Of a stretch of DNA of 64,000 bases, positions 4,530 to 45,959 are shown piece by piece. Numbering within the stretch: position 1 is the first letter of the stretch; each line of letters opens with the position of its first letter. The notes under the pieces are model-generated. The model was not told the origin of the DNA. It did no database searches and was given only the letters and a program-made list of their open reading frames with translations. The position numbers were made by a program, and so were the translations under genes. This stretch comes from a virus, in the IMG/VR virus record IMGVR_UViG_3300045988_117466, positions 64,001 through 128,000 of that record, one strand, 5' to 3'.

Positions 4530-7500
4530 TTAATCTAAAGTAGTTGCTAATGTTTCTCCATCAACAACAAAAGAGCAACCAAAAGTCGCTCCATTCATAA
4601 TATCTTGTCTATTTACAACAACACTTTTCATACCAGAGTGTTGTTCATTCCAATAAGTATCTCCGTCTGTATCAGATGATTTTCTACACCATTCAAAGTG
4701 ATCTTCTGACCAATCGTTTGTTACATCCGTACCATTTTTGGTGAGTGTGATGCTTAATGTAGATGTTCCGTCTACACCAAGTCTTGCTCCTGTAGAAGAA
4801 GTAAGAATGATGTTATAACCCATCTCAGTCATTTGAGAATCAAAATCATCCAGTGTGCTGTTCACACTTTCCTTAAAGGTCGTATACTCAACTCCCCACA
4901 AACCGCCTTTACCATCATAAATCTGTGTAATATCAATACCGCCTTGTGCGTTCGCCTCAACAGTAGAAAAGCTTAATTTATCTTTTGAAACCGATTTATC
5001 TCCAAGCATATTATTTACAATCAAACCATCAGCAATCGCATCTTTCGTAATACCTTGGCTTGTCATGATCGTTGCACCTTTATCGTCTTTGATAATAATG
5101 CTTGGATTTTTCTCTGTATCATAACCAATCTGGATGCCTACATTTCCTTCTTTATCTAAGAATTGCATAGCACTTCCATTCATAATGAAGTTGCCGTTCT
5201 CTGAAAGAATACGCATGGTATCAGAGATTGTAATATCGCCTGCGGCTAAGTCACCGATAGTCATTTTGCCTGCAATACCATTAATGATCCATGCGGAGTC
5301 GAACTTTGCGTTTGCTGAGGATAGATTGAATACAATACCTGTTTCTGTGGAAGAAGCACCGATGATTGCACTTTTAATGTTTGCTACTTCAGTTGTTAAA
5401 TTCTTAAACTCACCAACATTAGCAATAACAACTCTTGCGTTAATATAATCGGCATCAATATACTTTGAAAAGAACTTCTCAAACTCAGCTTCAGTACCAA
5501 CAATTTTCTTAACATTTGTTTGATTTGCTGTAATATTTAAAACACTGTTAGGTTGACTATTAATATACTCAACCATATTTCCAACAGCATTACCAAAACC
5601 AACAGATGTAGTTAATTGTCCCGTGATTGCTTTAAGAAGCTCTGGAGTAAGAATTGCATTGATACTTTCATCAACTCCAGTGTAAGCAGTAGAAGTGATA
5701 GAATTTCTGTTATTCTTTGTAGAAGAGTTTAATAAGAATACTTCATCATCTCGTTTTGCTTGAGATTTGATCATATTGGTAAATGAAATTTCAAACTTTT
5801 CAGATGGGTCTTTAGGATTGAAACTAAAAGTGTACAATCTGAATTTCTCTAAATTACCATGACCACCGAATTCATTTCCATCGTCAATTTCTAACCAGAT
5901 ATAATCCCCAAGAACCAATTGATCTAAATAAGGAGAGAAGTTCTCATCACACAATAAATTCTCAATCTGAGGAGAGTAGATATATTGTGGCTGGGCCTGT
6001 GAAGATAATTCCTTAACTGCAGCCTGATATAAATCTTCAGCTCGATCAACATAAGTTTCGATATCATCAAGAGTTGTGATCAAATAATTCTCATTTACAT
6101 AATCAGTTGATACATATAATTTGAGAATTGTCTGGCCCTCTGAGTTAAGATTTCCATCTTTGTCAATAAAATTAAAGTCTGGATTCTTCTTTAGGCTACA
6201 ATCATCATGTGCTTCAGTTCGTTTATCTAAGTATCCCTGAACTTTATCACTTGCCTCTTTATATTCTTTTTCCCTTTCTTCAAGAGCGGCTTTTGCATCA
6301 GCTAATTTCTGAACATACTCCTGATATTCTTTATAGTAATCTGTCTTATTATCAGAAACATCATATGGCTTGTCATATCCTTCTTTTACAAGAGTGTCAA
6401 TAGAATTCTGATACATCTTGATACGAACTTTCAGCTCGTCAACACCAAACAATTCCCATGTAGTTTCCCACTTATCAATTGGCTTTATTTTGTCTTCATC
6501 TTGCTTAGGAATATTAGCTATTGCAATCTTAATATTTGGAATGACATTGTCCACATAAGCAGTATAAGAATACCAGCACATATCTTTGATCATTTGGGCT
6601 TTCAGATCATCTCCAGTTAAGATCGTTTCATATGTTCCATCTTCTTTCTTAATCGGCTCACCATTCTCATTCTTTTTAGCATATCCATACTCTAGTAAAA
6701 TGAAATTAACAGCATCTATATAGATGTCAAGTTGCTTCTGAAGTTCATCTTCCTTGAATGTATCCCAATCAGTTTTTAAACCATCATTAGGAACACGATT
6801 CTTAATTTCATCAGCAACTTTCTTATATTTGCCCCACATTCTAGTGAGATAAGAATAATACTCTCTACGAGTCATTTCTTTTGAAGTTCCATCGTCAAGA
6901 GTATAAGTTACTTTTTCATTCTTGGTGCTATCCCAATGTGTTCCTCTATATTTCAAATAAGCTTCATATTTGTCAATTAGATCCTTAGAAACCAATGGTT
7001 CTTTAAGAACGTATGATAAATTATCAATGGTAATTTCACCAAAGTTTACATATTTAATATCAAGATTCTCTCCACCGGCCACATTAAACTGTGTATAGAC
7101 ATCATTTGTTGCACCGGTTACACTTAAAGAATCAATATAGTTTGTTGTACTTAAAGAAATACCCGTGTCCTTACCAAGTTGACTGATATGATAACAATTG
7201 ATCTTCCTATTTAATATGTCAAATGTGAACACGCATCTATAAGCCTGTGCTACTTTCTGAGTTAAGAAAGCATAAACATTAATAGACTCTTCTTCAAATG
7301 TACCTCTTACGAAAAACCATTCATCTTCTCCGTTCTCATTTTGTCTCTTATAAGGAATAAGCCATTTGGTATTTCCCTCTTCATCAATATAAGATTCATC
7401 GACATGTCCAACAGACCACCCCGGCAAGTTTTCAAGAACTAAATCTAATAAACTTAACTGACGATTATTGGGATCATATAAAGCAACATAGCGCTTTAAG

Positions 7501-7955
7501 ATTTTATTACCTGTTAATTTATCTTCGATAACATTCCCATCAGCAGTATATTCTTTACTTCCTGTTTTTCCTGTATTAACATAGAAAGTAACTAAATCTT
7601 TATTCTCGAGCTCAACATCACAAGACTCAGCTTTGACAGTCTTCATCTCTGAATATCCATCAAACTGAACACTTGAGACCTCAGTGATCACAAAGTATCC
7701 GATACGATCTATATAAATTTCCATTCCCTTATCTAAATATCCATATCCATTTGATAAGACAAAATTTGCATCATTATTAACATCAATATACTTTTCTACA
7801 CTAAAACTCAATTCCCATCTGTCATTAAGAGTAGCAGTGAGAGAAGTAGTAGAAGTGTCAATGCTATTCAAGGCGCAAATTGCCTTGCCTTCTGGATTCA
7901 CCAGATAAAAATCATAGGGCTCTGTATGATTGAAAATGTCTTTTATAAATTCCAA
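4530..7955 (-). CDS. Tail-associated protein (Tal / baseplate hub, minor structural protein)
   Basis: 1141-aa ORF immediately downstream of Dit, the canonical TMP-Dit-Tal order. The N-terminal ~380 aa look like prophage-tail/gp27-like Tal. Central coiled coil and C-terminal Ig-like module (FEWCRK...ATFGCSFVV). Confidence 0.65.
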   Translation of the reverse strand: MEFIKDIFNHTEPYDFYLVNPEGKAICALNSIDTSTTSLTATLNDRWELSFSVEKYIDVNNDANFVLSNGYGYLDKGMEIYIDRIGYFVITEVSSVQFDGYSEMKTVKAESCDVELENKDLVTFYVNTGKTGSKEYTADGNVIEDKLTGNKILKRYVALYDPNNRQLSLLDLVLENLPGWSVGHVDESYIDEEGNTKWLIPYKRQNENGEDEWFFVRGTFEEESINVYAFLTQKVAQAYRCVFTFDILNRKINCYHISQLGKDTGISLSTTNYIDSLSVTGATNDVYTQFNVAGGENLDIKYVNFGEITIDNLSYVLKEPLVSKDLIDKYEAYLKYRGTHWDSTKNEKVTYTLDDGTSKEMTRREYYSYLTRMWGKYKKVADEIKNRVPNDGLKTDWDTFKEDELQKQLDIYIDAVNFILLEYGYAKKNENGEPIKKEDGTYETILTGDDLKAQMIKDMCWYSYTAYVDNVIPNIKIAIANIPKQDEDKIKPIDKWETTWELFGVDELKVRIKMYQNSIDTLVKEGYDKPYDVSDNKTDYYKEYQEYVQKLADAKAALEEREKEYKEASDKVQGYLDKRTEAHDDCSLKKNPDFNFIDKDGNLNSEGQTILKLYVSTDYVNENYLITTLDDIETYVDRAEDLYQAAVKELSSQAQPQYIYSPQIENLLCDENFSPYLDQLVLGDYIWLEIDDGNEFGGHGNLEKFRLYTFSFNPKDPSEKFEISFTNMIKSQAKRDDEVFLLNSSTKNNRNSITSTAYTGVDESINAILTPELLKAITGQLTTSVGFGNAVGNMVEYINSQPNSVLNITANQTNVKKIVGTEAEFEKFFSKYIDADYINARVVIANVGEFKNLTTEVANIKSAIIGASSTETGIVFNLSSANAKFDSAWIINGIAGKMTIGDLAAGDITISDTMRILSENGNFIMNGSAMQFLDKEGNVGIQIGYDTEKNPSIIIKDDKGATIMTSQGITKDAIADGLIVNNMLGDKSVSKDKLSFSTVEANAQGGIDITQIYDGKGGLWGVEYTTFKESVNSTLDDFDSQMTEMGYNIILTSSTGARLGVDGTSTLSITLTKNGTDVTNDWSEDHFEWCRKSSDTDGDTYWNEQHSGMKSVVVNRQDIMNGATFGCSFVVDGETLATTLD

Positions 7956-7981
7956 TTCACTCTCACGCCTCCTTTCTGAAT

Positions 7982-8815
7982 TTAAAAAGCTCCAACCTTC
8001 TTAGGTTCGAGCCACTTGATTTTTATTTTGCAACGACCTGTAATTTCAATCCGATTTTCTCCCGGGACAAGTCGTAGCCAATATAATTTTTGTACAGTGT
8101 CCATCTTGAACACATTTGATAATACAATTCCTTTTCCATTCAGCTTAATAACTTGATGCTGACAATTGATCTCATAAGTACCTTTCGTATCCCATAAGTG
8201 CATTGTACTGTTATTGTCTGAATGATTTGTGATTTGAAGATCTGTCCAAAGCTCAGGGCTTTCAACTTCAATAATAGGATAAACATATTGTTCCAGCTCA
8301 TCTGATCCACAATCAAGAACTAAAGATCCATTATGATTAGGTGTTTCTAGTTTGTTTGTTAGGTCAAATAAATTACTTTCTTTTTCTACAAATCCATATG
8401 GTGCATTACACTCGAAGTCAACTTTTAAACCAGCAATTCCTCCAGCAAGAGCAGGAGTGACCTTAGTAACAATGGCATAATAAATGACATCATTCTTGCT
8501 ACCATCACAACCATAGAACTCTAATTTTCTATAGCTCTTAGGACTTGTTAACCACCTAGTAACTTCAGATACTTCATTTTCAGTAAATCGTTTCTGATCT
8601 TCATGAAGAAGAGTAATCTGGAATCCAAGTTTTCCTGAATATTTTGTATTATAGGCATGATAGATGTTACGATTCATAGTAGTTGAACCGTTTACGATCT
8701 CTCTATCAAGACTGAATGAATCTTCGGATTTGTCAAGATATCCAATGATCATTTTATGTGAAAAGTCCGATAGACTTTTATTGTTATAAGTAAAACTTAC
8801 TGCATTTGAATACAT
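7982..8815 (-). CDS. Distal tail protein (Dit)
   Basis: 277 aa, located between TMP and Tal. N-terminus ..VSFTYNNKSLSDF.. and ..VTRWLTSPKSYRKLEF.. fit siphovirus Dit proteins as I recall them. Confidence 0.6.
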   Translation of the reverse strand: MYSNAVSFTYNNKSLSDFSHKMIIGYLDKSEDSFSLDREIVNGSTTMNRNIYHAYNTKYSGKLGFQITLLHEDQKRFTENEVSEVTRWLTSPKSYRKLEFYGCDGSKNDVIYYAIVTKVTPALAGGIAGLKVDFECNAPYGFVEKESNLFDLTNKLETPNHNGSLVLDCGSDELEQYVYPIIEVESPELWTDLQITNHSDNNSTMHLWDTKGTYEINCQHQVIKLNGKGIVLSNVFKMDTVQKLYWLRLVPGENRIEITGRCKIKIKWLEPKKVGAF

Positions 8816-8890
8816 AAAGTCTCCTTTCTAAAAAATTATCCTGTAAGATGTACAAACTTGTTTTTTAACCTTTACTTTTGGAAGTTATTG

Positions 8891-9097
8891 TCATATAATG
8901 ACATTATTCGTATTTATATACGATGCCTTGAAGGATATGTGGTAGGAAGGGGCATGTCGAGTGCTAAGAACATTACTTGTCGTGATTAGTGTGGCTGCGG
9001 ATATTGCTAGCATAGCCTCACTCGTATTAACTGTACTCCAGTAACAAAAGATGATACATAGTTGTACGGAAGCAAAAGATTTTTGTATTTGACTCAT
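8891..9097 (-). CDS. Hypothetical small hydrophobic protein
   Basis: 68-aa ORF with a weak SD (AAAGG). No recognisable motif. Confidence 0.25.
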   Translation of the reverse strand: MSQIQKSFASVQLCIIFCYWSTVNTSEAMLAISAATLITTSNVLSTRHAPSYHISFKASYINTNNVII

Positions 9098-9450
9098 AAT
9101 ATCTACATACCTTTTTTGCCCAATTGGTGTGCCGGATACTAGAAAGAAAACCCACGTAATAGATTAGGCGAAGATAATACAAAACCTGCTGCTTTAAAAA
9201 ATAATTGAATCAATTCACGATATGTGCTATGATGATATTGACAAGTAAAGTTAAGACATGAGCTTAGCCACTTCAAACCAAATTCAGTAAGAATGGGCAT
9301 CTTACAGGAATTTGAATGATGATTAAAGGATAGTAAAAGGAGGTTACAAGGAGATTAATACTTTGCACTTATCCCGATTGGGAATCTTCCCTTTAACGGG
9401 TTAATCCAATCATCACTGTGAATTTAATTAAACAAATTCACCCATGAGAG

Positions 9451-9485
9451 AAGACACTCACTATTTACAGTGGGTGTCTTTTTCT
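9451..9485. terminator. Bidirectional intrinsic terminator hairpin
   Basis: AAGACACTCAC-loop-GTGGGTGTCTT flanked by A-run and T-run. Confidence 0.5.
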
Positions 9486-9491
9486 TTACTT

Positions 9492-9710
9492 TTATAATAA
9501 ATTTCCATCCCTCATAGAAGCAATTTCTTCCTTAATGTACATAGACTTCATTTTAGGAGTCAGCTCATCAAAAGGAGTTAATCCTTCATCATCCATATAG
9601 TTCATCAGAGCTCCCAGTGAAATTGAATACAGTCTATTCCTGTATTTCATTCGCATAACTCCGATTAATAAAATTCCAATAACAAGTAATAATAATAAAT
9701 TAATTTCCAT
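9492..9710 (-). CDS. Small single-pass membrane protein
   Basis: ATG at 9710 preceded by GGAGG. N-terminus MEINLLLLLVIGILLIGV is a transmembrane helix. Confidence 0.45.
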   Translation of the reverse strand: MEINLLLLLVIGILLIGVMRMKYRNRLYSISLGALMNYMDDEGLTPFDELTPKMKSMYIKEEIASMRDGNLL

Positions 9711-9724
9711 AATTTCCTCCAATT

Positions 9725-9756
9725 TTAAAAAGAGCCCATGCTTTCACATAGGCTCT
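9725..9756 (-). terminator. Intrinsic terminator after the tape-measure gene (GAAA-loop hairpin)
   Basis: AGAGCCTATG-TGAAAG-CATGGGCTCT followed by TTTTT on the minus strand. Confidence 0.6.
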
Positions 9757-9759
9757 ACA

Positions 9760-12700
9760 TTATTTACCGATCGTAGGTTTACGACCAATTTTGTGATATT
9801 CTTTTAGTTTGTTAGCTTGCTCTTGATCATAAACCTGTTTTGCAACAACCTTAAGATCATTCAGAACACTCTTATCAACCATGCCTCCAGATTCTACTTT
9901 GATCAATGCATCATAATAAGAAGAGAAGTCTCCAGTACCAGTCATAATATCTTTTGTCTTAGAGGCTTTAACAACTGATTCAGAAATCTTAACAGCTTGT
10001 TTTAGCACATCAGATGTTTCTGGCTTCAGTAAGATTTCGTCTCTACGGACAGTAGCAATACCGTGATCATGATTACTTTGGATTACACCATTAAGTTTAG
10101 AAATTGGTATTACATCATCAATGACACCACCGTTTCTTACACCTGCATTTTTCAGAGCTTTTAAGATTTTATTTGATTGAGCTTGAGTATATGTTTTCCC
10201 CTTAGCTAAATAAAATTCTTTACCCTTCTTAGAGTTTTTGCTAGTAATTACTCCGAGTTTTCTACCAAGGTCTCCCATTGGGCCTGGATTGTGTACAACA
10301 TCATAACCCTTACTGGCTAAATAATTATTTAGAGGAGACCAGCTTTTAAGCTGAGCTTGAGTATAAGGAGTTCCTGTGTGGAATTTTAATCCTAATGACT
10401 TAGCTTTCTTTTGAGCAGGAGAAAGTTGAATTGTAACACTGAAACTTACTACAATTCCATTAGCCGATCTACACGTTGGAGTAATTGTTCCCTCATTGTC
10501 GCCTTTTGTGGCTGTAATAGTACATGAACTACCAGAGCCTGACATTGTTACATATCCAAGGCTGTTAGGATACCAAGAAAATGATTGTCCAGCTCCATCT
10601 GGAGGAACAATATCAGAAACAGTAACAGTCTTACTTTCTCCAGGGGCTAAAGTAATAGATGCTGGGCTAACACTGAAAGACATAAGATTATGTGCCTGTT
10701 GTTCGGGTGTTTTCATAGAACCACTAACACCACTAGCATTTCCAGTTTCAACTTTTGAAGAATCAACCTTAGAACCCGTAATACCAGTTGTACCAGTTAC
10801 ATTGGTATCAGGATTTGCAACATTATTAGTCACAGAGCTGTTCTTGTTCTGAGTATCTTTTGCGTTCTGTTCAGGTGTCTTGCCATTAGCAGAGCTATTG
10901 TATTCAGAATGATATAACTCACTTAGACCATTAATAAGTCCAGAATTAATAGCAGTGTCATTAATCTTCTTAAAGACATCAGAATAAGAATCTCCAACCT
11001 GTTTTAAGAACTTGCTAATAAGCTTAGATTGTTCATCCAGAGAACCGCTTAAAGATTTAAGCTGTTTATCCAAAGACTCTTGTAATTTTTCAGTCAGATC
11101 ATCGTATCCTTGGGATTCCATAGAATATTGATGTTCTTTCTTAGTGTCATCCATCTGTTCCTGGGCATCAGCAATTTGAGCATCTAATTTAGCTCTTTGT
11201 GCTTTTGCAGCTTCTCCTTCGACACCCTCTAAAGCAGCACGCTGAGCTTCAAGTGCTTGCAAATCTTTTGTCTGACTCTTGATGTTTTTGTCGTAATCGT
11301 AGTATTCTTTCTTACGACTCAATGCCTCTTTACGTTTATTAATGACTTTGACGAGAGCATCAACTTCAGCTTGCATCGTTGTCTTACCAAGTTCTACAAT
11401 TTGATTCTTATAGTCATTGGTATTTGTTGCAGCCTCACGAAGTTGTTTGTTGATTTCAGCTAACTTACTTTCAAAAGTGGCATCGCCAACCATTCGTTTA
11501 CCATTCTCGTCAAAAGTATCATGTAATTTATAGAGAGCATTTCTTTGCTCCATAAGATCAGCCATGTTTTGTTGGCCTTGACGAACATTATCGCTCAAAA
11601 GAGCAATTTTAGCTTTACCGTCTGTAGTCAACTTACCTGTGTCAGGATCGTTTAAGTAATCCTGATTCAGCATATTCATAAGATCGTTATTCTCATCGAT
11701 ACGAGTATTTCTCTTATCAATCTTACGACTGCTTTCATCAAGAGGGATCATAATAGCTTCTTGACGTAACTGTTCATTCTTTTCATCTAAAGAATAATTC
11801 TCTTCACGCCTTGAATACCAATCATCATAAAGCTCTTTGTATCTTTCAGAATCCTTAGCAACCTTATTCATCAGTTCCTGATCAGTTTTCATGATCTCAG
11901 CATTGACAGCAGCTCTGTCATTATTTCTAGCAATCTGATCAGTTTTTGACTGTTTAGTAGCATAGTCGCCATGAGCTTCAGCCATAGAAGCAGTATGTTC
12001 TAAAGCAGTAGCAGCATGTTCAGCTTCATCTGCAAGTCTTGTCAATCTATCAATTTTGATCTGATCAATTTCTTTTCTCACATTTGCAATAGCAGTATCA
12101 GTATCAACAATATTATTCTTAAAAGTTTGAATCTGAGCTTCATATGTATTCTTTTGTTCATCTGTTAAGATTCCCTTTTTCTTAGCCTTATCATACTCTG
12201 CCTGATATTTATTCAATTCTTGTAGCTGAATATTTTTCTGATTCTGATATTGCTGAATCTGATTGTTTAAATTAGCTGTTTTATTATCAAAAGTATCTGT
12301 CCCTTGAGCAATATTAAGATCATTGATCTTTTGATAGTTCTCTAGGATAGCAGACGTTTTAGATGCCATAGCATCATAATAACTAACAACCTTTTCAAGT
12401 TTGGTTTGTACCAGTTCTTGTTGTTGTTTCCTAAGCTCTTCAACTTGCTGTTTGCATTGTTTAGCTTTATCATACCAGTTCTTATATTCTTCAACAGCGC
12501 TACGAATCTTATCATTACTAATAGTTTTGATATCAATAGACCCGTTACGTACTTTCTTGAAATAAGATTTTAAAGCTTTTTGGTTCTTAGCTTTTGAAGC
12601 TTTTTTTGTTTTAGGAGCTTTCTTAACTGCTTGTTTCTCAAAGCTTTCATAGAATTTCTTATATTTCTTATAGCCTTGATTATTAGCAGTGATAGAAGAA

Positions 12701-13177
12701 CCAACACTCTTTAAAGCTTCATCGTAATCATTAACAGCAGAAGTAAGATCATGAACATTTTCTGCTTTAGCTGTCCAAAGATCAGTAGCAGCAGAAAGAT
12801 TTTCAATCTTTACTTCAATGAAATCAAAAGCTTTACCTATCTTATTAAGATAATTTTCAAGAGCTGATTTCTTAGATTTGGTTTTCTTCTTACCATTCCC
12901 AGAACCAGACTTACCAGAACCGGTTTTAGATTTACTAGAAGAAGTAGTTTTCTTCTTTTTACCTACAGTAGTTTTACTACCATTAGATTTAATTTTAATT
13001 CCAGCAGAGTTAGCATGAGCAGATCCATGAGCAAATGCTCCTTCACCACCAACAATCTTAGCTCTACTTCCAGTTTTTCCTTTGTTTAGGAGTTCCTTTG
13101 TTTGTAGGTGATTAAATACTATATCACCACGTTTGAGGTTCACAAATTCTGGGCCTTGAGACCCTACTGTAAACCAT
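9760..13177 (-). CDS. Tape measure protein, exon 3 (5' end is a best guess)
   Basis: Frame is open from 13188. It has no SD and only a GTG at 13143. It opens ..GSQGPEFVNLKRGDIVFNHLQT.., a TMP motif. Long coiled coil, Big_2-like Ig segment (SVSPASITLAPGESKTVTV). Confidence 0.6.
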
Positions 13178-13320
13178 CTATTACCACGTCAATTATGTTT
13201 TCATCGGTTCGCAACACCGACAAGAGTTTTCACTCCTCATGCTTTCACATGAGTTCAGACTATATCTTTTACCTGATTTTATTGTATGTATGTTTTGTTT
13301 GTTTTTTATTTGTGGGTATT

Positions 13321-13355
13321 AAAAAAGAGCAGAAGTAAAATTACTTTTGCTCTTC
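13321..13355 (-). terminator. Intrinsic terminator after the intron A cargo genes
   Basis: GAAGAGCAAAAGTA-loop-TACTTCTGCTCTTTTTT on the minus strand. Confidence 0.6.
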
Positions 13356-13380
13356 GGTAGAGGTTAAATTAATTTGTTTA

Positions 13381-14268
13381 TTATGCTCCTATACTTCGCC
13401 ATTTGCCTTTTGACCATTTGCAAATTTCTTCATCATCTATACAAAGGACATATTTTTTATTCCCGATTTTACAATTACAATGAATCTCTTCATCTCGGAT
13501 ATCCCACCATGTTAAAGATCCTTTGATTTTAAAATTTACCTTAGTCCATGTGCCAGGTTTGAGATCGATGTATTTTTTATTCCCTGTTAGTTTTAAGTTT
13601 CTGTCATATTTTTTGTAATCACAATCTAAAGAATAAGCACCTTTAGAATAAATACGAATTTTTTTATTACTTGCGTTAAAAAGCTTTGTTTTAAAAATAT
13701 TTGATCGAGTATCGTATTTATGCAACCAGCCGTTCATATGAATGCTTTTATATGGTTTTACAATTACGGAAATTGTTTTTTTAAAAGTTGTTGTTTTGTC
13801 CCAGGCGTTTTTAATTATATGATTGTTTAAGTCATCATCATAGTTCCCATTTTCTCCATAGCGATAATCATCATATACAGCAAAATGGTCTTCATAACAA
13901 TCAACACTTAATGTTATTTTGGATTTACCAAATTTCTTTGCATCAACATATGTATATAAATCTTCAACTCCAATTCCTTCATAAGAGTCTAAGGATATAT
14001 TTTTATTAGATCTTGACCATGAAATTGAATTAACATCCAAAGTGTATCCACCCTCTTCATCACCATAGTGCTTCCATAGCGTAGCATCATTTTTCATAAA
14101 TTCCCCATTATAGTATAGCTTAGGAGTAATTTTTTTCATCTGTCCATAATACATTGTAATAGTTTTAGGGACAGAGATACTGAAACCTGCTTGAGCGCTT
14201 TTGGTGTTAATAATCCATAAAAAACTAAACACTAATATAAAGGACATTAATTTTAAAAATTTTTTCAC
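13381..14268 (-). CDS. Secreted protein (intron A cargo)
   Basis: GTG at 14268 after GGAGGAGGG. Signal peptide VKKFLKLMSFILVFSFLWIINTKSAQA. Cys-rich C-terminus. No nuclease motif. Confidence 0.55.
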   Translation of the reverse strand: MKKFLKLMSFILVFSFLWIINTKSAQAGFSISVPKTITMYYGQMKKITPKLYYNGEFMKNDATLWKHYGDEEGGYTLDVNSISWSRSNKNISLDSYEGIGVEDLYTYVDAKKFGKSKITLSVDCYEDHFAVYDDYRYGENGNYDDDLNNHIIKNAWDKTTTFKKTISVIVKPYKSIHMNGWLHKYDTRSNIFKTKLFNASNKKIRIYSKGAYSLDCDYKKYDRNLKLTGNKKYIDLKPGTWTKVNFKIKGSLTWWDIRDEEIHCNCKIGNKKYVLCIDDEEICKWSKGKWRSIGA

Positions 14269-14284
14269 AATAGCACCCTCCTCC

Positions 14285-15154
14285 TTAAAATTCCTTTGTA
14301 ATCGGTTTTGTGAATGGTGTTTCACTTTCATAATAAGTATATTGCCCAGGGGATACCTTATCAGAATTTCCATAAGAAACTATTTCCATTTTGACAATCT
14401 TGTCCTTTGTTTCAAAACTGCTTTCTTCCCACATAGATTGATATGCTTTTAAATTATAGTAGTATAGAGATTGATCGCTTACTACGGTTCCATTTTTATC
14501 ATAAAAACGAATATCAATATTGGCCATATCATAATCATAGTCTGTTAGATTTTTGATTTTTATTCTATATGTCCGATATCCGTATGTAGATGCTTTGACT
14601 TCAATTTTTTCAATTTTATACGTGTCATCTATAAGCGTGGCTCCTTTCGGACAATATCCATTCTCTTTTATAAGTTCGTCATATGATTTCTTATCCCCTT
14701 TGGTTGTAAAAGAAAGATGTGTCTGATCAACTAACTTTTTTAGAATTTCCGCACGCTGGCTATTGTATACATAATAATTGTATTGTATCTTAGTCGGAGC
14801 ACTGGTGTAATCATCAAATAAATCATTTTGTGTATTTAAGGTTTTAATATATTCAGAAATTAAATTTTGTGTATTCTTGTTTTCGAATTGGATTTTAGTT
14901 TCTGAATATTTGTTTAGTGGTTTTAATTCAGTAGCGATATACTTTTGCATCATAGCTGCGTAGTCAGATTGAGATTGATTACTATCATCGGTCTTATCAC
15001 TAATCTCCCATCTTTTTTCGAGCCCAGTTTTTAAATCATTTGCTACTTGTTTGTCTGTGATTTTGGCTTCTTTTTGAGGAGCATCTTTCCCACAAGCACA
15101 AAATAAACATAAACTTGTAAGAAGCATACATCCAATTAAAATTTTCTTTTTCAT
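14285..15154 (-). CDS. Lipoprotein (intron A cargo)
   Basis: ATG at 15154, 7 nt after GGAGGG. MKKKILIGCMLLTSLCLFCAC-GKD is a lipobox-like signal. TATAAT lies at 15192-15187 on the minus strand. Confidence 0.65.
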   Translation of the reverse strand: MKKKILIGCMLLTSLCLFCACGKDAPQKEAKITDKQVANDLKTGLEKRWEISDKTDDSNQSQSDYAAMMQKYIATELKPLNKYSETKIQFENKNTQNLISEYIKTLNTQNDLFDDYTSAPTKIQYNYYVYNSQRAEILKKLVDQTHLSFTTKGDKKSYDELIKENGYCPKGATLIDDTYKIEKIEVKASTYGYRTYRIKIKNLTDYDYDMANIDIRFYDKNGTVVSDQSLYYYNLKAYQSMWEESSFETKDKIVKMEIVSYGNSDKVSPGQYTYYESETPFTKPITKEF

Positions 15155-15542
15155 ACATTTTCCCTCCATAATTTATTTATAAAGCAATTATACATTATTT
15201 GACATGTTTTTCATAGAGAGAATATTTGTTTATCATATTTATCAGGTAATTTATCATTTCGATTTAAACATTACTGTACCGCCATTAGCTTGCGGCTCTA
15301 CTCCTCATAAGAGGATAGTCGTTGAACCTTATCCTATTCGGATCTTGGCTGCTGATTGTCCATTGTAGCAGAAGCAGGGGATTTAACCTCGCTTCCATAT
15401 AATTAATTCTTTTTACTTTCGTAGCGTTCACATCTAGGCATATTTCATCCTTCTGTTGTAGCTTAATTATCTTTAAGACTTTCCAGCAATTAGATAAATT
15501 TTCACATATGTATTACTACATAAGGTCGCATATGTGGTTTAT

Positions 15543-18500
15543 ACGACAAGTTCGTCTCCTAATTCTCCTGTAAGAGCTCGTTCATCTTGTTTTAATCCCC
15601 AATCGCCACCATTAGCATGAGCATCTCCAGCAGATGATTTGAGCTTATCCGTTTTCTCTTGTAAATATTTGTTCTTTTCAGCCTGCACAACAGGATTAAT
15701 TTCTGATAAATCAGAGATTTTTGTTGTTCCCATCGCAAGAGCACGGCTTCCAAGCTTCTTAATTGTTCCGTGAGCAAAAGCACCAAATTCTTCAATATCA
15801 TCAAGCTCATTGTCGTACCAGTCTGTTAAGTCATCAACAGTACCTTGAGCGAAAGCATTTGAATATGGAATGAAAGATCCGTGTGCATTTGCTGTACCAT
15901 GGGCTTTGCCTTTCTTTTTTTTCTTTCCTGAGCTTTTCTTACCTCCTGAGGGCTCAGAAGGAGTACTACCAGTAACGAAATCAACAATTCGAGTGATATG
16001 TTTTGCTGCCCATCCTGCGATTGTTCCATCAGCAAGAGAGGTGTCCGCCTTAAGTTGTGCAGTGTTTGTAACTTTTTGGCTTTTCCATTCCTGAACTTTT
16101 TGATTCGCTTCAGTAATATCTCCTTTAAGATGTCCGGTTTTATCAACCTCAATCCCAAGGTATTCTAAAAGCTTTTGATTAGCTTTAGAAGCATCTACGT
16201 CTAATTTTCCTTCTTTGTCAATTGGAATATTTAAAAAATCAGCTATTTCTTTGGTGGCTTTTTTAGTATCTGCATCAACTTTAACGGTTGTAGACTTCTT
16301 TCCGCCTTTGCCAAGATTATCAATATCTTGTTTTGCCTTTTTGGTATTAGCCTTTACTTCAATAGTAACTTGACCTTTTTTCTTATGTTTATTGTATTCA
16401 TCAACAAGACGTTTAATCTCTTTATCAATCTTATCATTGCCAGTTTTTTCTACGGTATTATCTTTGCCAACCTTAAGTCCAGATTTTAACTTATTAAGTT
16501 GAGTGTTTAATCCAGATTTTGTTTTGATTTGCTTTCTAAAAACACCATTATCACTTTTGCCACTGACCATATTGGCAGTTTCTTTTTCAAGTTTAGATAC
16601 AGTTGTGTTTAAATTTTTGATTCTGCTTTTTAATTTACTTTGAGCTTCATTAAGTTTTTTCTTTGCACTTGCTTTATCATCGTCAGTTTTAGCATCTTTC
16701 CAAGTATCATAAGCATTGCTATAATCCTTTTGAGCTTTCTGTACAGAATCTCTAGCAGATTTAACTTTTTGATAAGAATTTTTCTTCCAGGATTCATATT
16801 TTTCGGTAGAATCTATAGCGTAATGGTTTTTGTCAGCTGTTGATTTAGCATTTGTAATAATTGAGTTACCATATTCAAACGCCTCTTCAGAATACTTATT
16901 ACCATATTTGTTTACAAGCTTTTTATCATTGGAATCAACAGCTCCTTCAAATTTGCTTTCTGCATCTTTAAATTCAGCCTTATCCTGAGCAATCTCAATC
17001 TCAAACTTTAACTTCTTGACCATCTCATCTGGGATATCTTCGCCAGCGTTTTTCAGTTTAAGAATCTGCTGTCTGTAATCCTCAATCTGTTCTCCTAATG
17101 CTGTTTTACCAGCACCATCTTTCATATTTTTCCATTTATCAACCAGTTGGTCAACATAACTTTCAGCTTTTTCGTACTGTTCTGTAACAGATTTAAAATC
17201 AATCTTACCACCATAATCTTTTAAACGATTCAGTACAGCTTCGAAAGGTTCAATACCCATACCCATTGCTTTAGCGGCAGTAGCAGTATTAGTGATCTTT
17301 CCAGAATATGTACCTTCAGCAGTTTTCTTTAAAGTACCAAAATCAGTATTAGCTTTTTGGGATTTGGCAGATAAATCATCTAAGAATTTAACCAGACCGC
17401 TATCATCAGAAGTAAAATACTTAGTAGTCTTAGCCCATGTCTTATCAAAAGTAGCAGCATCAGTCTTACCAGATGAACTCATAACACTTGTCAATGTTTT
17501 GAAATCATCTGTTCCAATAAGTCCTTTGTCACGTTCTTTCTTCTGAGCATTGAATGCTTCACGCATTGCTAAGTAAGTATCACCAGAGTCAGCTGTTTCT
17601 TTTGCTTGAAGATAATCACTCCAAGTAGACTGAGAGTTTGCCTGATTGATTAATTTAAGACGCTCTTTCAACTGATCAAGACTACCTGTCCATTTCTCAG
17701 TTTTAGAATTTAAGATATCAAAGGCTTGAGATGCTTCAGTAAGATTCAAACCATCAATGAAAGATTGAGTATCTTTATTATCACCAAGCTTTTCCTTGAT
17801 ATCTTCAATCATTGATTGAACATCTTTACCATCTTTTAAAAATCCTTCAAAATTTCCTTTATCGTCTAATTTGAAATCAACATTAAAAGAATCAGCCAAA
17901 GATTTGTTTAATTGCTCAATACTAACCCCATCATCTGTGGCAGCCTCTTTAAGCTTATCATAAGCATCTTTGGTATTATTGAGCCAATTCTGAACACCCT
18001 TGTTACTAGATTTATCATAGCTTTTAATAAACTTATCAAGAGCTCCTTGTGCTTTATCATCTTTAGCAAATTTCTTTGCTGCAGCAATAGTATTTTCTCG
18101 TTGTTCCTTGACCCAATCTTTATCTTTTAGATTATCTCTAGTCGCAGTATCTATGTTATAAGTATTAGATCCTAATCCTGTAAGGAAGCTTTGAGCACGA
18201 CTACCCAATTTATTATAATCAGTAATACTACCTGGCAATGAAGTGGCAATATCTTGATTGTATTGATCAAGAGCCTTTTGGGTTTTAGTAAGCCCAATTT
18301 TATATTTTTGAGCATAACCTGAGATTTTAGCGATTTCTTCACTAAGATCAGTTCCCTTAGGTAAATAGTCTTCAGTTTTATCCAAGATCTGCTTATATGA
18401 ACCAATAAATTTGTTCATGTCAGCTTGTTTGTATAAATCGAAGGTTTGATCCTTTGGTAATTTCAACACATCTTTGGCAGCCTTGTTGAAAGCAGTAGTT

Positions 18501-19531
18501 AACTGGCTGGTTTTATCGCCTTGCAGACCGTTTCTTAACTGAGTAGTTAAGGTGTCCATGTCGTTGCCCCAGAACTTATCAACACCAGTTCCAGAAGCTT
18601 TCTTAACATTCTCTATGTTACCTTCAACTAACTTGTCCCAAGTTTCATCAGAAGCATATTTCTTTTGTGCGCTTTCTTGTTTCTTCTCCTGAGATTCAAT
18701 CGCTTTGTCCATCAATCCAGATGTTTTAGCAATTGCATTTCCTTCTGCATCATATCCTGAAATAAGAGAAGGAGTAGTATCTAAAATTTCCTTGCGGATA
18801 CTTAAGAATCTCTCATAAGAAGAAGTATCTAAACTGATGTTATTACCGTATTCGTCTACACCTTTGGATAAAGATTCAAATTCTACTTTATTCCCTTTGA
18901 GAGTGGAAATATTACTTTGGACATCAGACATTTTGTCCTGATAAGTGCTACGGGTTTTATCAGCTTTTTCTACCTTATCTTTGTCATAAGTAGCAGCTTT
19001 CTTAATGTTTTCAATTCCTTTAGAAAGAGCACTTCCTGCAAATTCCATGATTAGACTTGCACCTAATCCTAATAACACATTTGCGGCAAAAGCACCAGCC
19101 TTAGCAGCTATGCCAGAAGCTTTAACATTTTCCACGAAACCTGCTAATCCACCTGCGGCAGATTGAGCAATGCTACCAGATTTTTCAACCTCTTTGTTGA
19201 ATTCTTCAAGACCTTTTCCATAACTATTTTTCTTATCACTAAGATCATAATTATTTTGCTTAGCTTGACCGTAAAGAGTACTAGCTGTATCACGACCTTT
19301 TTCAGTCTTCATTTCATCCTGAAGTCGCTTAAACATGTCCTCTTTTTCTTTGGTAGACTTATTACCAAAGATTTCAGGAACCATGCTGTTACTAAAGAAA
19401 TCCTGCAATCTACTTTGATCAGACTGCATATTCTCATAATTAGCCTTACGTCTTGTAGGACTAAGTGCATTCAGAATAGCACTACCAATTGGAAATTCAT
19501 TTTTACCAGTTTCTTTATTGTACTGTACAAG
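15543..19531 (-). CDS. Tape measure protein, exon 2 (ends are best guesses)
   Basis: Opens at TTG 19534 with no SD. K/E/D-rich coiled coil. Ends ..DAHANGGDWGLKQDERALTGELGDELVV and then stops. Confidence 0.6.
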
Positions 19532-19901
19532 CAAACTGTTTACTCAAGGGCAGGGAAATACCCTATTTTCACACTGGTAAAATATGTATTTGACAATCAC
19601 TAATGCAATATTCTATACTAATTATGTAACAAGAAATATGTATCATATCTCAAAGTAATAACACACATGGGGCTCACAATTCAGTGAGCCTTTTGTGTAT
19701 CTGAAATTAAAGGAGAAGAGAGGTTCATAAAGATACCTCTTTTTCGCAATTAACCTTGCAATATTTGGAAACATAAGTTATAATTAGAAACATCATGGAA
19801 TAATTAGTTCCCCAATTAATTATTTTCATACTAAAGGCATTCCTAGGAGGTAGGGATGCCTTTTCTCCATTTATGGGGTAACGATTCGTTCACCCATCAA
19901 A

Positions 19902-20708
19902 TTAACTTTCTAACTGATCTTCCAGATCCTTAATCTTAGAATCTCTAAATGCAATTTTCTTTCCAGTACTACGATGATTTGTTTCTATGTATCTACGTTT
20001 CAGATTGTTTAGTACATACTCTGCAGTCATTCTGTACATTGGATTTAGAGAACCAGAAGTTTCAATAATCGATTCAAGTTTATCATCGATCATTGTTACG
20101 ATTTTCTGCTTATACTCAGTTGCATTTAGTTTTCTATGATACTCATAGCGGTCTTTCTTTTTTAAATGAACGTGAACATCAATGATCTTATCAACAGTGG
20201 CTTCCAGATTTGTGTAATCAGATTCTAAAAGAACACGATCAATGTTGCGTACAGAATATTTAATTTTATCTGCATCATACTGTCTCTGAAGCTGACATTC
20301 ATCTGAAACTGCTACATCATATAGATCGTTATTATCTTGCTGAAGTTGTGTGATCAGCTCAATCATTCTCTCAAAAGCATCTGTGTATCTAGCTGTAAAG
20401 ATAAGAGCTTTGTTACCAGTAAACTTGTTTACCAGCATTGCAAATCCTTTACGATCAATATAATACATAGGACGCTCCTGGTTATTTAAATCAAGATAAG
20501 AGCCGAGGGAAAAATTTCCGGCGGCTAATTCAGGGATAACTTCTATAAAATGACGAATCTTTTTCATTACATCTGCATGGTCTTTCCCATAAGTCTCAGC
20601 CACATTGAGAGAAGTGGTGTACACATCACCATTGATCTCTTCAAGACCAAATTCCTCATTAATTTCTGCGATTTCACATTCAATAGCTTTCTTTGTTTCT
20701 TTTAACAT
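19902..20708 (-). CDS. Rha-family phage regulatory protein (intron B cargo)
   Basis: ..TSLNVAETYGKDHADVMKKIRHF..NFSLGSYLDLNNQERPMYYIDRKGFAMLVNKFTGNKALIFTARY.. matches the Rha/pRha pattern. Confidence 0.7.
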   Translation of the reverse strand: MLKETKKAIECEIAEINEEFGLEEINGDVYTTSLNVAETYGKDHADVMKKIRHFIEVIPELAAGNFSLGSYLDLNNQERPMYYIDRKGFAMLVNKFTGNKALIFTARYTDAFERMIELITQLQQDNNDLYDVAVSDECQLQRQYDADKIKYSVRNIDRVLLESDYTNLEATVDKIIDVHVHLKKKDRYEYHRKLNATEYKQKIVTMIDDKLESIIETSGSLNPMYRMTAEYVLNNLKRRYIETNHRSTGKKIAFRDSKIKDLEDQLES

Positions 20709-20743
20709 AATTCAATTTCTCCTTTTAATATAAACTTAATTTC

Positions 20744-20769
20744 AAAAGGGGTCGCATTTCACGACCCCC
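20744..20769 (-). terminator. Hairpin terminator between the Bro and Rha genes
   Basis: GGGGTCG-TGAAATG-CGACCCC followed by TTTT on the minus strand. Confidence 0.5.
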
Positions 20770-20793
20770 TATCAACAACAATCTCACCAAACT

Positions 20794-21600
20794 TTAATCT
20801 TCAAGATCCCCAACAACTCTGTAAACAAGTTTCTGACCTTTACCAGTTACATAAGTCTGTGGAACAATCACATTGCAAATCACATGTTCACCAACTTCAA
20901 AACATCCGTTCTCAACGTATCTCTGATATGGCATGTTGTCCCGCATCAGGATTCCATTACTTCTCAGAATCTCAAAAAGACGATTCCTTCCAATGTCATA
21001 TCCATCATTCTGCAACAATTTGGCCATTGTGTTCATGTCGATCGTATCAGAAGAAGCAGTAACACATCTTGCAAAATCTACATCTTCTTTGGAAGCTTCA
21101 AGTTCTCCACGAAGCTCTGCGATTGTAGCTTGCTGAATTTCTAATGCTTTGAGTACAAACTCAGCTTCAGACAGATTTTTATATGGAATGTATCCACCTG
21201 TACGTCTGATCTGTGGAAGAACTTCAGATGTTACCCATCTTTTGAAACGATGTAATTTTTCAATTCTCTCTTCAATAAGGGGGTCATTTTGTGACACCCC
21301 CTTTGCTTTAGCAGGTTGCATTAAGAATAATAATGAATATAGTCCTGATTCATTAAGAACTGTGATGTTTTGCATTCCTCCAGCGGTTTGAATTTTTGCC
21401 ATTGTTTTGTCAGCTTTGTCAATTCTACGCAAGCTACGCTTGTGATTTGTATCTCCAAAAGCTATGCATACATCTTTTCCAACAAACCAAGGTTCATTGT
21501 CAATCTCAACGCATCTGATTGATCCAAATTCGTCATTTACGAAGTTCATGATCTGATTGTTATTTCCTACTTCATTTTCTGCTTTTGTTAAATTTGCCAT
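20794..21600 (-). CDS. Bro-N / KilAC antirepressor-type protein (intron B cargo)
   Basis: ..FGSIRCVEIDNEPWFVGKDVCIAFG..TAGGMQNITVLNESGLYSLLF..FKRWVTSEVLPQIRRTGGY.. is classic Bro-N. The C-terminal half is KilAC-like. Confidence 0.8.
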   Translation of the reverse strand: MANLTKAENEVGNNNQIMNFVNDEFGSIRCVEIDNEPWFVGKDVCIAFGDTNHKRSLRRIDKADKTMAKIQTAGGMQNITVLNESGLYSLLFLMQPAKAKGVSQNDPLIEERIEKLHRFKRWVTSEVLPQIRRTGGYIPYKNLSEAEFVLKALEIQQATIAELRGELEASKEDVDFARCVTASSDTIDMNTMAKLLQNDGYDIGRNRLFEILRSNGILMRDNMPYQRYVENGCFEVGEHVICNVIVPQTYVTGKGQKLVYRVVGDLED

Positions 21601-21670
21601 ATTAAATTCTCCTTTTCTTCAGAAAGGTGCACCAAATGGCATAGAACAGATGGTGCTGATGATTTGCTTA

Positions 21671-21759
21671 TCCTTCTATGCATATATGGCTAATTTACTA
21701 CCCCTTTAAAACACCAGGCTCTACCTAATGTTTTAAGACTCAATTAATGTGGTAAGTCT
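21671..21759 (-). promoter_or_regulatory. Conserved hairpin cassette, copy 1 (upstream of the Bro gene)
   Basis: TTACCACATTAATTGAG, a long imperfect hairpin, then GGGGTAGTAAATTAGCCATATATGCATAGAAGGATAAG. Two more copies lie at 48054-48144 and 48238-48330. Confidence 0.5.
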
Positions 21760-45702: not shown

Positions 45703-45775
<73 letters not shown>

Positions 45776-45959
45776 ACAAAAAGAGTACATTGTAACTACC
45801 AACAATGTACTCAAATTTAGAAAAGAGGTATAAATTATGATTCCTACAAGAAATCTTAATAGCTTTGTAAATCTTTCTGAGGTATGAAACAACAATAGAA
45901 AAGCGCAATAATCAAAACTTCACAAGAAAGGAGATAATATGATTCCTCAGAAAGATTAA

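What the first reader, a model, noticed from the sequence alone, without database searches (positions are those of the whole stretch)
13178..15542. Intron A carries a lipoprotein + secreted-protein cassette instead of a homing endonuclease
Seen in sequence:
- The cargo sits between the conserved intron 5' arm (15542-15170) and the GAAA-tetraloop hairpin CTCATGTGAAAGCATGAG (13253-13236). The 5' arm shares blocks with the LAGLIDADG-bearing intron N, where the same hairpin lies before the endonuclease ORF.
- Gene 1 (15154-14285) has a lipobox-like signal, MKKKILIGCMLLTSLCLFCAC-G.
- Gene 2 (14268-13381) has a cleavable signal ending SAQA.
- The cassette has its own TATAAT (15192-15187), SD sites and an intrinsic terminator (13355-13321).
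- Neither ORF has a nuclease motif.

Established knowledge: ORFs inside group I introns are normally homing endonucleases. Phage-encoded membrane lipoproteins (for example Ltp-type) can block DNA injection by other phages through the incoming tape measure (from memory).

Inference: a moron-like, possibly superinfection-exclusion cassette is riding inside a self-splicing intron of the tape-measure gene itself.
Basis: partly seen in the sequence, partly recalled or inferred. Interest (0 to 1): 0.85.

Follow-up and report, generated by a model that had tools for sequence, protein, structure and literature searches.

The report
Phage intron carrying swappable envelope-protein genes
A self-splicing group I intron in the tail tape-measure gene of a large gut phage carries a two-gene cassette for cell-envelope proteins, with its own promoter and terminator, where a homing endonuclease would normally sit; related phages carry different cassettes at the same spot, and host bacteria hold a ribozyme-dead copy in their chromosome.

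Summary
Window 15542-13187 (minus strand) is a group I intron. Its two halves match Rfam RF00028 on either side of helix P8. Removing it restores a tape-measure (TMP) motif that is continuous in uninterrupted homologues. The 1,963-nt P8 loop holds a lipoprotein gene (15154-14285) and a secreted two-domain Ig-like protein gene (14268-13381). They lie behind a perfect TATAAT and in front of a strong intrinsic terminator. No nuclease or maturase signal appeared in Pfam, PHROGs, NCBIfam, PADLOC, AlphaFold2 or Foldseek.

Comparison with other sequences adds three points:
- 25 related phage loci have the same intron at the same codon. The ribozyme arms are 91-100% identical, against 77-96% for the exons.
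- These loci carry at least nine cargo combinations, nearly all envelope proteins and none an endonuclease. The exchange points sit just after the start codon and at the terminator.
- Chromosomal contigs attributed to Anaerostipes hadrus carry the cassette together with intron-derived flanks. The 5' core there is lost, and ORF1 has dN/dS 0.09.

Best reading: a moron-type accessory cassette sits in an intron loop that acts as an exchange site. Splicing, expression and function are untested. Superinfection exclusion is plausible, but there is no resemblance to Ltp. The 3' splice site is ambiguous (13187 preferred, 13178 possible).

The parts
15543..19534 (-). TMP segment 2 (upstream exon); last exon base is T15543
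   Evidence: ORF ends ...GELGDELVV with TAA one codon into the intron. The junction motif is continuous in uninterrupted TMPs.
13187..15542 (-). Group I intron, IA-like with P7.1/P7.2, 2,356 nt (alternative 3' end at 13178 gives 2,365 nt)
   Evidence: RF00028 matches to both halves. 105 proposed pairs are 99.8% paired across 13 distinct sequences, with 5 compensatory pairs. Arms are more conserved than exons.
15241..15542 (-). Ribozyme 5' half. P1 15547-15540/15532-15525. P2 15522-15507 (GUAA loop). P3 15500-15493. P4 15489-15483 and 15355-15349. P5 extension between the P4 strands. P6 15348-15327. P7 5' strand 15320-15316. P7.1 15315-15302. P7.2 15296-15278. P3' 15255-15248. P8 5' strand 15247-15241.
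   Evidence: Rfam alignment; helices placed by sequence; pair counts.
13278..15240 (-). L8 loop, the cargo bay (1,963 nt)
   Evidence: Lies between the P8 strands ACCUGAU and AUCAGGU. The RF00028 model breaks at position 158/159, the start of P8.
15187..15214 (-). Cassette promoter-like site (-35 ATGAAA, 16-nt spacer, -10 TATAAT)
   Evidence: 10 of 12 consensus matches. Nearly invariant in the phage and bacterial copies aligned. In the bacterial copies it is the only plausible promoter, because the neighbouring genes are on the other strand.
14285..15154 (-). ORF1: predicted lipoprotein, 289 aa, 4-helix bundle plus beta-sandwich
   Evidence: Lipobox LFCAC|G. phrog_34415 E 9e-13. 72 homologues. 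AF2 pLDDT 80. dN/dS 0.09 against bacterial copies.
13381..14268 (-). ORF2: secreted protein, 295 aa, two Ig-like beta domains; GTG start behind GGAGGAGGG
   Evidence: Signal ...SAQA|G. Homologues include Big_2 proteins. AF2 pLDDT 76. Foldseek hits to intimin D00-D0, phage N4 capsid chains (9e99) and Hoc.
13318..13355 (-). Intrinsic terminator of the cassette (hairpin 13355-13324 plus U6)
   Evidence: -13.9 kcal/mol, z -6.4. Its core is invariant in the phage and bacterial copies aligned. Homology between different cargo types resumes here or, for related ORF2s, upstream of here.
13187..13277 (-). Ribozyme 3' half. P8 3' strand 13277-13271. J8/7 and P7 3' strand AAGAUAUAGUC 13268-13258. P9 13253-13236 (GAAA loop). 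P9.1 13235-13224 (GAAA loop). P9.2 13220-13204. Terminal G 13187 (or 13178).
   Evidence: RF00028 model positions 159-253, with high posterior over J8/7, P7' and P9. The AAGATATAGTC motif occurs once exactly in the window.
9760..13186 (-). TMP segment 3 (downstream exon), beginning ...GNRWFTVGSQGPEF...
   Evidence: The spliced product reads through without a stop. No start codon or Shine-Dalgarno sequence is visible for independent translation. Dit (DUF6558) follows at 8815-7982.

Best explanation
This is a group I (IA-like) self-splicing intron in the tape-measure gene of a large gut phage, about 177-212 kb, probably infecting Anaerostipes. Its P8 loop serves as a harbour for an autonomous accessory-gene cassette (a moron) rather than a homing endonuclease.

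Shown:
- The ribozyme is split by the cargo exactly at P8. Both halves are recognisable and more conserved than the flanking exons.
- Removing the intron restores a conserved TMP motif.
- The cargo is a bicistronic unit: TATAAT promoter, Shine-Dalgarno sequence, lipoprotein gene, secreted Ig-like protein gene, strong terminator.
- In 25 related phage loci the same intron at the same codon holds at least nine other combinations. These include four lipoprotein families, two related secreted-protein families, Zn-ribbon single-pass membrane proteins and a DUF4177 pair. Recombination breakpoints lie just after the start codon and at the terminator, and the two gene slots reassort independently.
- Chromosomes attributed to A. 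hadrus hold the cassette with intron-derived flanks. The 5' core there is lost, and ORF1 is under strong purifying selection.

Inferred:
- Late transcripts of the tail operon read through the cassette terminator, fold P8/P7 across 2 kb, and splice to give one TMP.
- Transcripts from the internal promoter stop at the terminator and express only the cargo, independently of TMP.
- The conserved arms, promoter and terminator act as homology arms for cassette exchange among phages and with the chromosomal copy.
- The envelope proteins most likely alter the infected or carrier cell surface, blocking adsorption or DNA entry of competing or related phages. This function is the weakest step.
For: Intron:
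- RF00028 matches of 41.2 bits and 23.7 bits to complementary model halves.
- P1 with a U.G pair and an immediate in-frame stop.
- 99.8% of cells paired, and 5 compensatory pairs in P6, P7.2 and the P5 extension, reached by 0 of 500 shuffles.
- Arms 91-100% identical against exons 77-96%.
- The junction motif is uninterrupted in L001, BK5-T and L030-L033.

Cargo:
- No Pfam, PADLOC or NCBIfam nuclease hit, and only generic folds.

Cassette autonomy:
- Promoter and terminator are conserved.
- Bacterial copies sit between genes on the opposite strand.
- ORF1 dN/dS is 0.09.

Exchange:
- Cargo types and breakpoints.

Bacterial remnant:
- DNA homology covers window 15458-13176.
- The 5' region gives no RF00028 hit.
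- The species name comes from a cluster member.
Against: - There are no RNA data, so splicing, promoter use and terminator read-through are all inferred.
- A strong terminator upstream of the ribozyme's 3' half would abort TMP transcripts unless it is read through.
- Each Rfam half-match is below the family's gathering score of 50 bits. Summing them to 64.9 is only a rough argument.
- Promoter-like sites are not enriched over shuffles (20 found against 14.4 expected).
- The lower G+C of the cargo (29.8% against 35-36%) lies within local variation of the TMP gene.
- Arm conservation could also reflect recent spread by recombination.
- Nothing identifies the cargo's function.
- No integrase was found in the window, so the phage lifestyle is unknown.
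- The 3' splice site is ambiguous.
Confidence: 0.72

Rival explanations
1. Relic intron. The ribozyme no longer splices, the TMP is made as separate polypeptides (or segment 3 is not made), and the cassette is an ordinary moron lying between two genes.
For: Each Rfam half-match is below the gathering score. A strong terminator sits upstream of the 3' half. The TMP is also interrupted at 22185-19535, where no Rfam intron match was found.
Against: The arms are more conserved than the coding exons. Compensatory changes keep the helices. The break falls inside a short motif that is continuous in five independent uninterrupted homologues. Segment 3 has no visible start codon or Shine-Dalgarno sequence at the junction. 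The stop codon lies one codon into the intron, as in active phage introns (from memory).
Confidence: 0.1
2. The cargo proteins serve the phage's own lytic cycle, for example envelope remodelling, lysis or release, or protection of progeny from receptor debris as with T5 Llp. They would not be a dispensable moron or exclusion system.
For: No integrase was seen in the window. Every one of the 25 related phage loci examined carries some cargo and none is empty. The location is in the late tail operon.
Against: The cargo families are non-homologous between close relatives, and one gene alone is enough in L016 and L022. This argues against a fixed essential role. The same cassette is kept under purifying selection in bacterial chromosomes with no phage around it.
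Confidence: 0.12
3. The cassette is a bacterial surface-protein operon of host origin, and the phage copy is a passenger with no selected function in the phage.
For: ORF1 relatives include Clostridia cell-wall proteins with PG_binding_1. Chromosomal copies are common, with clusters of 12 and 55 members on many contigs.
Against: The chromosomal copies carry intron-derived sequence (P7.1, P7.2, P3', P8, J8/7, P7', P9-P9.2) and up to 11 nt of TMP exon. For that segment the transfer therefore ran from phage to bacterium. The phage ORFs are intact across many contigs, and dN/dS is 0.09.
Confidence: 0.05

Closest known systems
Phage group I introns with a homing endonuclease gene in a peripheral loop (T4 td/I-TevI, nrdB, sunY; SPO1 DNA polymerase/I-HmuI; Twort; Streptococcus thermophilus lysin introns) - from memory
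   Same: An IA-type ribozyme in an essential phage gene. An ORF-bearing loop is extruded from the core. A stop codon follows just after the 5' splice site. The loop ORFs can have their own expression signals.
   Different: The cargo here is not a nuclease. It is a two-gene, exchangeable envelope-protein cassette with a terminator. No variant with an endonuclease or with an empty loop was found in 25 phage loci.
Morons of lambdoid and other phages (for example HK97 gp15, lambda bor/lom): promoter, gene and terminator units inserted between late genes - from memory
   Same: An autonomous promoter and terminator. Presence varies among close relatives. The products are often envelope proteins. The unit sits inside the late structural operon, so late transcription must read through.
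   Different: This unit lies inside a gene, within an intron loop, rather than between genes. The flanking intron, promoter and terminator form a fixed exchange site shared by many phages and by a host chromosomal copy.
IStron (CdISt1) of Clostridioides difficile: a group I intron fused to an IS200/IS605 element (PMC10690162, found, abstract only)
   Same: A group I intron in Clostridia that carries non-endonuclease cargo and is found in chromosomes.
   Different: IStron cargo is transposase and TnpB, which mobilise the element. Here the cargo has no mobility genes, and the chromosomal copy has lost the ribozyme's 5' core.
Ltp-type and other phage lipoproteins for superinfection exclusion (TP-J34 Ltp, PMC3952083; T5 Llp and phi80 Cor from memory)
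   Same: A phage-encoded, lipobox-anchored surface protein. Ltp is said (from memory) to act against the incoming TMP, which would fit the location.
   Different: No sequence or fold similarity to Ltp was detected. The function is untested.
rps3 inside the fungal mitochondrial rnl group I intron - from memory
   Same: A cellular-function gene housed in a group I intron loop.
   Different: That is a single conserved housekeeping gene in organelles. It is not a variable accessory cassette with its own promoter and terminator.

Membership tests
Group I intron (Rfam RF00028) | Conserved core helices P3-P8 with the J8/7 and P7 guanosine-binding region | tested here: met
   Model positions 5-158 at 41.2 bits and 159-253 at 23.7 bits. 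Each half is below the 50-bit gathering score because 2 kb of cargo splits the match. The AAGAUAUAGUC consensus is exact.
Group I intron (Rfam RF00028) | P1 pairs the 5' exon end with an internal guide, with a U.G pair at the splice site; the intron ends in G | tested here: met
   GUCGU|AUA pairs with UAUGCGAC, with the U.G pair at 15543/15529. There is a G at both candidate 3' ends (13187, 13178).
Group I intron (Rfam RF00028) | Removal restores an uninterrupted host gene | tested here: met
   The spliced product reads ...GELGDELVV(GNR)WFTVGSQGPEF... and aligns with uninterrupted TMPs.
Group I intron (Rfam RF00028) | Helices maintained in evolution | tested here: met
   5 compensatory pairs, reached by 0 of 500 shuffles. 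The sequences are 98% alike, so the evidence is thin but consistent.
Group I intron (Rfam RF00028) | GTP-dependent self-splicing | not testable with these tools
   Needs an in vitro assay or RNA reads.
Mobile intron with a homing endonuclease | The loop ORF encodes a LAGLIDADG, GIY-YIG, HNH, His-Cys or PD-(D/E)XK nuclease | tested here: not met
   No such domain in ORF1, ORF2 or the seven other cargo proteins scanned. The predicted folds are a helical bundle with a beta-sandwich and Ig-like domains.
Moron | Own promoter and own terminator flanking the gene(s) | tested here: inconclusive
   The sequence signals are present and conserved. The bacterial copy has no co-oriented upstream gene. Their activity has not been measured.
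Moron | Present, absent or different among otherwise collinear relatives | tested here: met
   At least nine cargo combinations at one site.
Moron | Expressed from the repressed prophage, or independently of the neighbouring genes | not testable with these tools
   No transcript data, and the phage lifestyle is unknown.
Ltp-type superinfection-exclusion lipoprotein | Lipobox signal | tested here: met
   LFCAC|G fits the PROSITE rule when read by eye. The Cys is conserved in the alignment.
Ltp-type superinfection-exclusion lipoprotein | Homology to the Ltp helical repeat domains | tested here: not met
   No Pfam or PHROG link to Ltp. Ltp is not among the PDB or BFVD Foldseek hits.
Ltp-type superinfection-exclusion lipoprotein | Blocks DNA injection of incoming phage | not testable with these tools
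   Needs a phage challenge of cells expressing the protein.
IStron | A group I intron joined to IS200/IS605 tnpA/tnpB | tested here: not met
   No transposase in the cargo. The TnpB gene at 62125-63234 is elsewhere in the window.

The most novel reading that the evidence does not exclude
The P8 loop of this intron is a dedicated exchange site. The conserved ribozyme arms, promoter, start codon and terminator act as homology arms. Through them, diversifying cell-surface (anti-phage or exclusion) cassettes shuttle among phages and between phage and host chromosome. The host copies would then be captured exclusion genes that protect the bacterium against this phage lineage. An intron would be working as a safe harbour and gene-exchange platform inside an essential gene.
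Probability: 0.3. Interest if true: 0.9.

Novelty: new variant of a known kind. Interest (0 to 1): 0.8.

Why it matters
Group I introns in phages are viewed as selfish elements whose loop ORFs are homing endonucleases. Here the loop holds host-interaction genes, and the cargo is swapped repeatedly while the ribozyme stays nearly invariant.

If this holds, three things follow:
- Splicing can make the interior of an essential gene a neutral landing site for accessory genes.
- Introns without endonucleases could persist because of their cargo.
- Intron sequence can mediate gene flow between a phage and its host.

It also supplies a set of uncharacterised envelope proteins from an abundant human-gut Firmicute and its phages that can be tested directly for phage exclusion.

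Tried and rejected
- Whole-window and 18-kb Rfam scans found no intron. Only short sub-windows did, because the cargo splits the model.
- The INPHARED phage collection has no relative of either cargo protein and no close relative of the region.
- PADLOC, Pfam and NCBIfam gave no function. ORF1 had only a sub-threshold FxLYD hit.
- Foldseek against PDB and BFVD gave only generic beta-sandwich and Ig-like matches.
- The GTDB species representatives hold only two distant ORF1 relatives, both in Blautia, so the chromosomal element appears not to be fixed in any represented species.
- The terminator scanner missed the hairpin; folding showed it.
It gives contiguous P1-P10 pairing (AUG/UAU, or UGGUUU/AAACCA) and lies 2 nt from the end of the bacterial homology. 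It would delete GNR, however, where all uninterrupted homologues have 4-6 residues. I could not settle this.
- I considered that the bacterial copy might be a live intron with a new P1. This was rejected: P4' and P6 are deleted and there is no RF00028 hit.
- I tried to define the first TMP interruption (22185-19535) as an intron. Motifs are present, but there is no Rfam hit and no clear junction.
- Literature searches found no report of a moron or envelope-gene cargo in a phage group I intron. The library is incomplete.
Full report
**Context**

The window's minus strand carries the structural module of a large low-G+C phage. A tape-measure protein (TMP) is read in three long ORFs: 26307-22186, 19534-15539 and 13143-9760. 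The first ORF hits tape-measure PHROGs (phrog_4211, E 3.6e-55). A Dit-like tail protein (DUF6558) follows at 8815-7982. The finding concerns the gap between the second and third ORFs.

**The intron is real**

Scans of the whole window and of an 18-kb stretch against Rfam found no intron. Short sub-windows did.
- 15548-15249 matches RF00028 model positions 5-158 (41.2 bits, E 2.8e-9).
- 13330-13236 matches model positions 159-253 (23.7 bits, E 2.2e-4).
- The two matches meet at the start of P8, so 2 kb of inserted sequence splits the model there.

The sequence shows the following helices directly.
- P1 is GUCGU|AUA with UAUGCGAC, with the U.G pair at the splice site (T15543).
- P2 has a GUAA loop.
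- P3, P4 and P6 are present.
- P7 is GACUA with UAGUC.
- P7.1 and P7.2 lie between P7 and P3', which is typical of subgroup IA (from memory).
- P8 is ACCUGAU (15247-15241) with AUCAGGU (13277-13271).
- The J8/7-P7' consensus AAGAUAUAGUC is present.
- Three 3' hairpins follow, two of them with GAAA loops.

A TAA stops the exon-1 reading frame one codon into the intron.

**Removal restores the gene**

Joining 15543 to 13186 gives ...GELGDELVV-GNRWFTVGSQGPEFVNLKRGDIVFNHLQTKELL.... This motif is continuous in several uninterrupted TMPs:
- the 2,722-aa TMP of MT835469;
- the TMPs of Lactococcus phage BK5-T and its relatives;
- four uninterrupted IMG/VR homologues (ELVVRNGEYFTVG, ELLVRGGKFTTIG).

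That site gives a P10 contiguous with P1 and lies 2 nt from the end of the bacterial homology. I therefore put 13187 at about 75% and 13178 at about 25%.

**The ribozyme is under selection**

I found 25 related phage loci. Of the 20 found first, 13 give distinct cargo-deleted sequences.
- On those 13, 105 proposed pairs are 99.8% paired. Five pairs have compensatory changes (P6 x2, P7.2 x2, P5 extension x1).
- None of 500 shuffles reached that, and slid controls pair at 33-40%.
- The structure was derived from these sequences, so the pairing percentage is partly circular. The compensatory changes are not.
- Measured on ten of these loci, the arms are 91-100% identical to the window. The adjacent 600 nt of exon are 77-96% identical.

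**The cargo**

L8 (15240-13278, 1,963 nt) contains, in order:
- a -35/-10 pair with a perfect TATAAT (15214-15187);
- a GGAGGG Shine-Dalgarno sequence;
- ORF1 (15154-14285), followed after 16 nt that contain GGAGGAGGG by ORF2 (14268-13381, GTG start);
- a hairpin of -13.9 kcal/mol (z -6.4) followed by U6 (13355-13318).

ORF1 has a lipobox (LFCAC|G) and matches phrog_34415 (E 9e-13). AF2 predicts a four-helix bundle plus a beta-sandwich at pLDDT 80. It has a sub-threshold FxLYD hit and only generic beta-sandwich neighbours in PDB and BFVD.

ORF2 has an ...SAQA|G signal. AF2 predicts two Ig-like domains at pLDDT 76. Its neighbours are intimin D00-D0, phage N4 capsid chains (9e99) and Hoc, and its distant relatives carry Big_2.

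Neither protein shows any nuclease, maturase or defence-system signal.

**The loop is an exchange site**

All 25 related phage loci have the intron at the same codon, and none has an endonuclease or an empty loop. The cargo combinations are as follows.

| First gene | Second gene |
|---|---|
| lipoprotein-289 | secreted-295 (this window) |
| lipoprotein-289 | secreted-269 |
| lipoprotein-293 | secreted-269 |
| lipoprotein-293 | Zn-ribbon single-pass membrane protein |
| lipoprotein-380 | Zn-ribbon membrane protein |
| lipoprotein-365 | secreted-280 |
| lipoprotein-365 | Zn-ribbon membrane protein |
| lipoprotein-365 | none |
| DUF4177 protein | 430-450-aa Zn-ribbon membrane protein |

Pfam gave only Zn-ribbon and DUF4177 domains for these proteins. 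Homology to the window stops 5-17 nt after the ATG (about 15149-15137). It resumes at the terminator (13354), or inside ORF2 where the second gene is related. The promoter, Shine-Dalgarno and start block and the core of the terminator are nearly invariant. The two gene slots reassort independently.

**A copy in the host chromosome**

ORF1 homologues at 85-92% identity lie on bacterial contigs of up to 240 kb.
- They sit between the mannitol PTS operon, an ABC-ATPase gene or amt on one side, and cysN/APS-reductase or adh/LytR genes on the other.
- A member of the same 90% cluster is named Anaerostipes hadrus by NCBI. That same member also carries a Caudoviricetes accession.

The DNA homology is not limited to the genes.
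- It runs from window 15458, inside the P5 extension, to 13176.
- It includes P7.1, P7.2, P3', P8, the promoter, the terminator, J8/7, P7', P9-P9.2 and up to 11 nt of TMP exon.
- P1 to P4 are replaced and P4' and P6 are deleted. The region gives no RF00028 hit under the conditions that gave 41 bits for the phage arm.
- So this is a ribozyme-dead remnant derived from phage DNA.

The coding status of the remnant varies.
- ORF1 has dN/dS 0.09 at dS 0.43-0.83 against the phage copy.
- ORF2 is intact in one type (281 aa) and broken in another.
- Some loci keep only the flanks around about 400 nt of debris.

The roughly 2.8-kb bacterial element has different neighbours in different contigs. It is bounded by an imperfect 49-nt inverted repeat and a roughly 62-nt direct repeat. 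The GTDB species representatives hold only two distant ORF1 relatives, both in Blautia.

**Interpretation**

The intron loop is a conserved docking site for varied envelope-protein cassettes.

The mechanism I propose is inference:
- late read-through and long-range folding for splicing;
- internal promoter to terminator for cargo expression;
- homologous exchange through the conserved flanks.

The terminator upstream of the ribozyme's 3' half is the main difficulty. It would need read-through, as for morons inside lambdoid late operons (from memory).

Function is unknown.
- Envelope location, rapid turnover of cargo and retention by the host fit a role in phage exclusion or surface modification.
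- There is no similarity to Ltp, and no integrase was seen in the window.
- Phage contigs that carry the cassette reach 177-212 kb with TMP flanks, which says nothing about lysogeny.

**Novelty**

Searches of the paper library found phage introns with endonucleases, IStrons and Ltp-type exclusion proteins. They found nothing describing accessory envelope genes housed in, and exchanged through, a group I intron loop. The library is incomplete, so this is absence of evidence only. I class the finding as a new variant of known kinds (group I intron and moron).

Noticed in passing
window 19535-22185 (minus strand): The TMP has a second interruption, carrying a Bro-N/KilAC antirepressor-like ORF (21600-20794) and a Rha ORF (20708-19902). 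The cargo differs in relatives (L007 has Bro-N, ANT and a 96-aa ORF; L009 has Rha). Group-I-like motifs are visible: AAUCCGCAGC near 21985, AAGAUAUAGUA at 22020-22010, and 8-nt complementarity between the exon end and about 22140. There is no Rfam hit, and I could not define the junction.
   Followed up: partly
window 32505-32781 and 31988-32410 (minus strand): 'Intron N' matches the full RF00028 model (38.6 bits, E 3.9e-8) and shares blocks with intron A. Its downstream ORF has only weak HTH hits and ends in ...YILGFLDADG followed by a stop 7 codons later. It looks like a truncated or split LAGLIDADG gene.
   Followed up: partly
window 45703-47151 (minus strand): A ROOL RNA (46034-46645, 303.7 bits) sits inside an array of seven tRNA genes in this phage.
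   Followed up: no
window 62125-63234 (plus strand): A TnpB/IS605 OrfB-type gene (OrfB_IS605, Cas12f1-like TNB and HTH domains) lies in the phage genome.
   Followed up: no
L013 5590-8385; also L003, L012, L014, L056, L073: The bacterial element that holds the intron remnant is about 2.8 kb. It has an imperfect 49-nt inverted repeat (5605-5653 with 8068-8116) and a roughly 62-nt direct repeat flanking the intron-derived part. Large perfect palindromes lie beside it, one of them with 47-nt arms. It occurs with at least three different sets of neighbouring genes, so it may itself be mobile or sit in a recombination hotspot.
   Followed up: partly
L001 (MT835469.1) 2502-4400 and 7891-16059: In the 176-kb gut phage MT835469 the junction studied here is uninterrupted. 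The PhageMin_Tail-like part matches a separate upstream region (3987-4259), so its TMP may be split at a different place.
   Followed up: no
window 9492-9722 (minus strand): A 76-aa ORF with one hydrophobic segment directly follows the TMP. ORFs of 63-72 aa lie at the same position in L007 and L009; their similarity to it was not checked.
   Followed up: no
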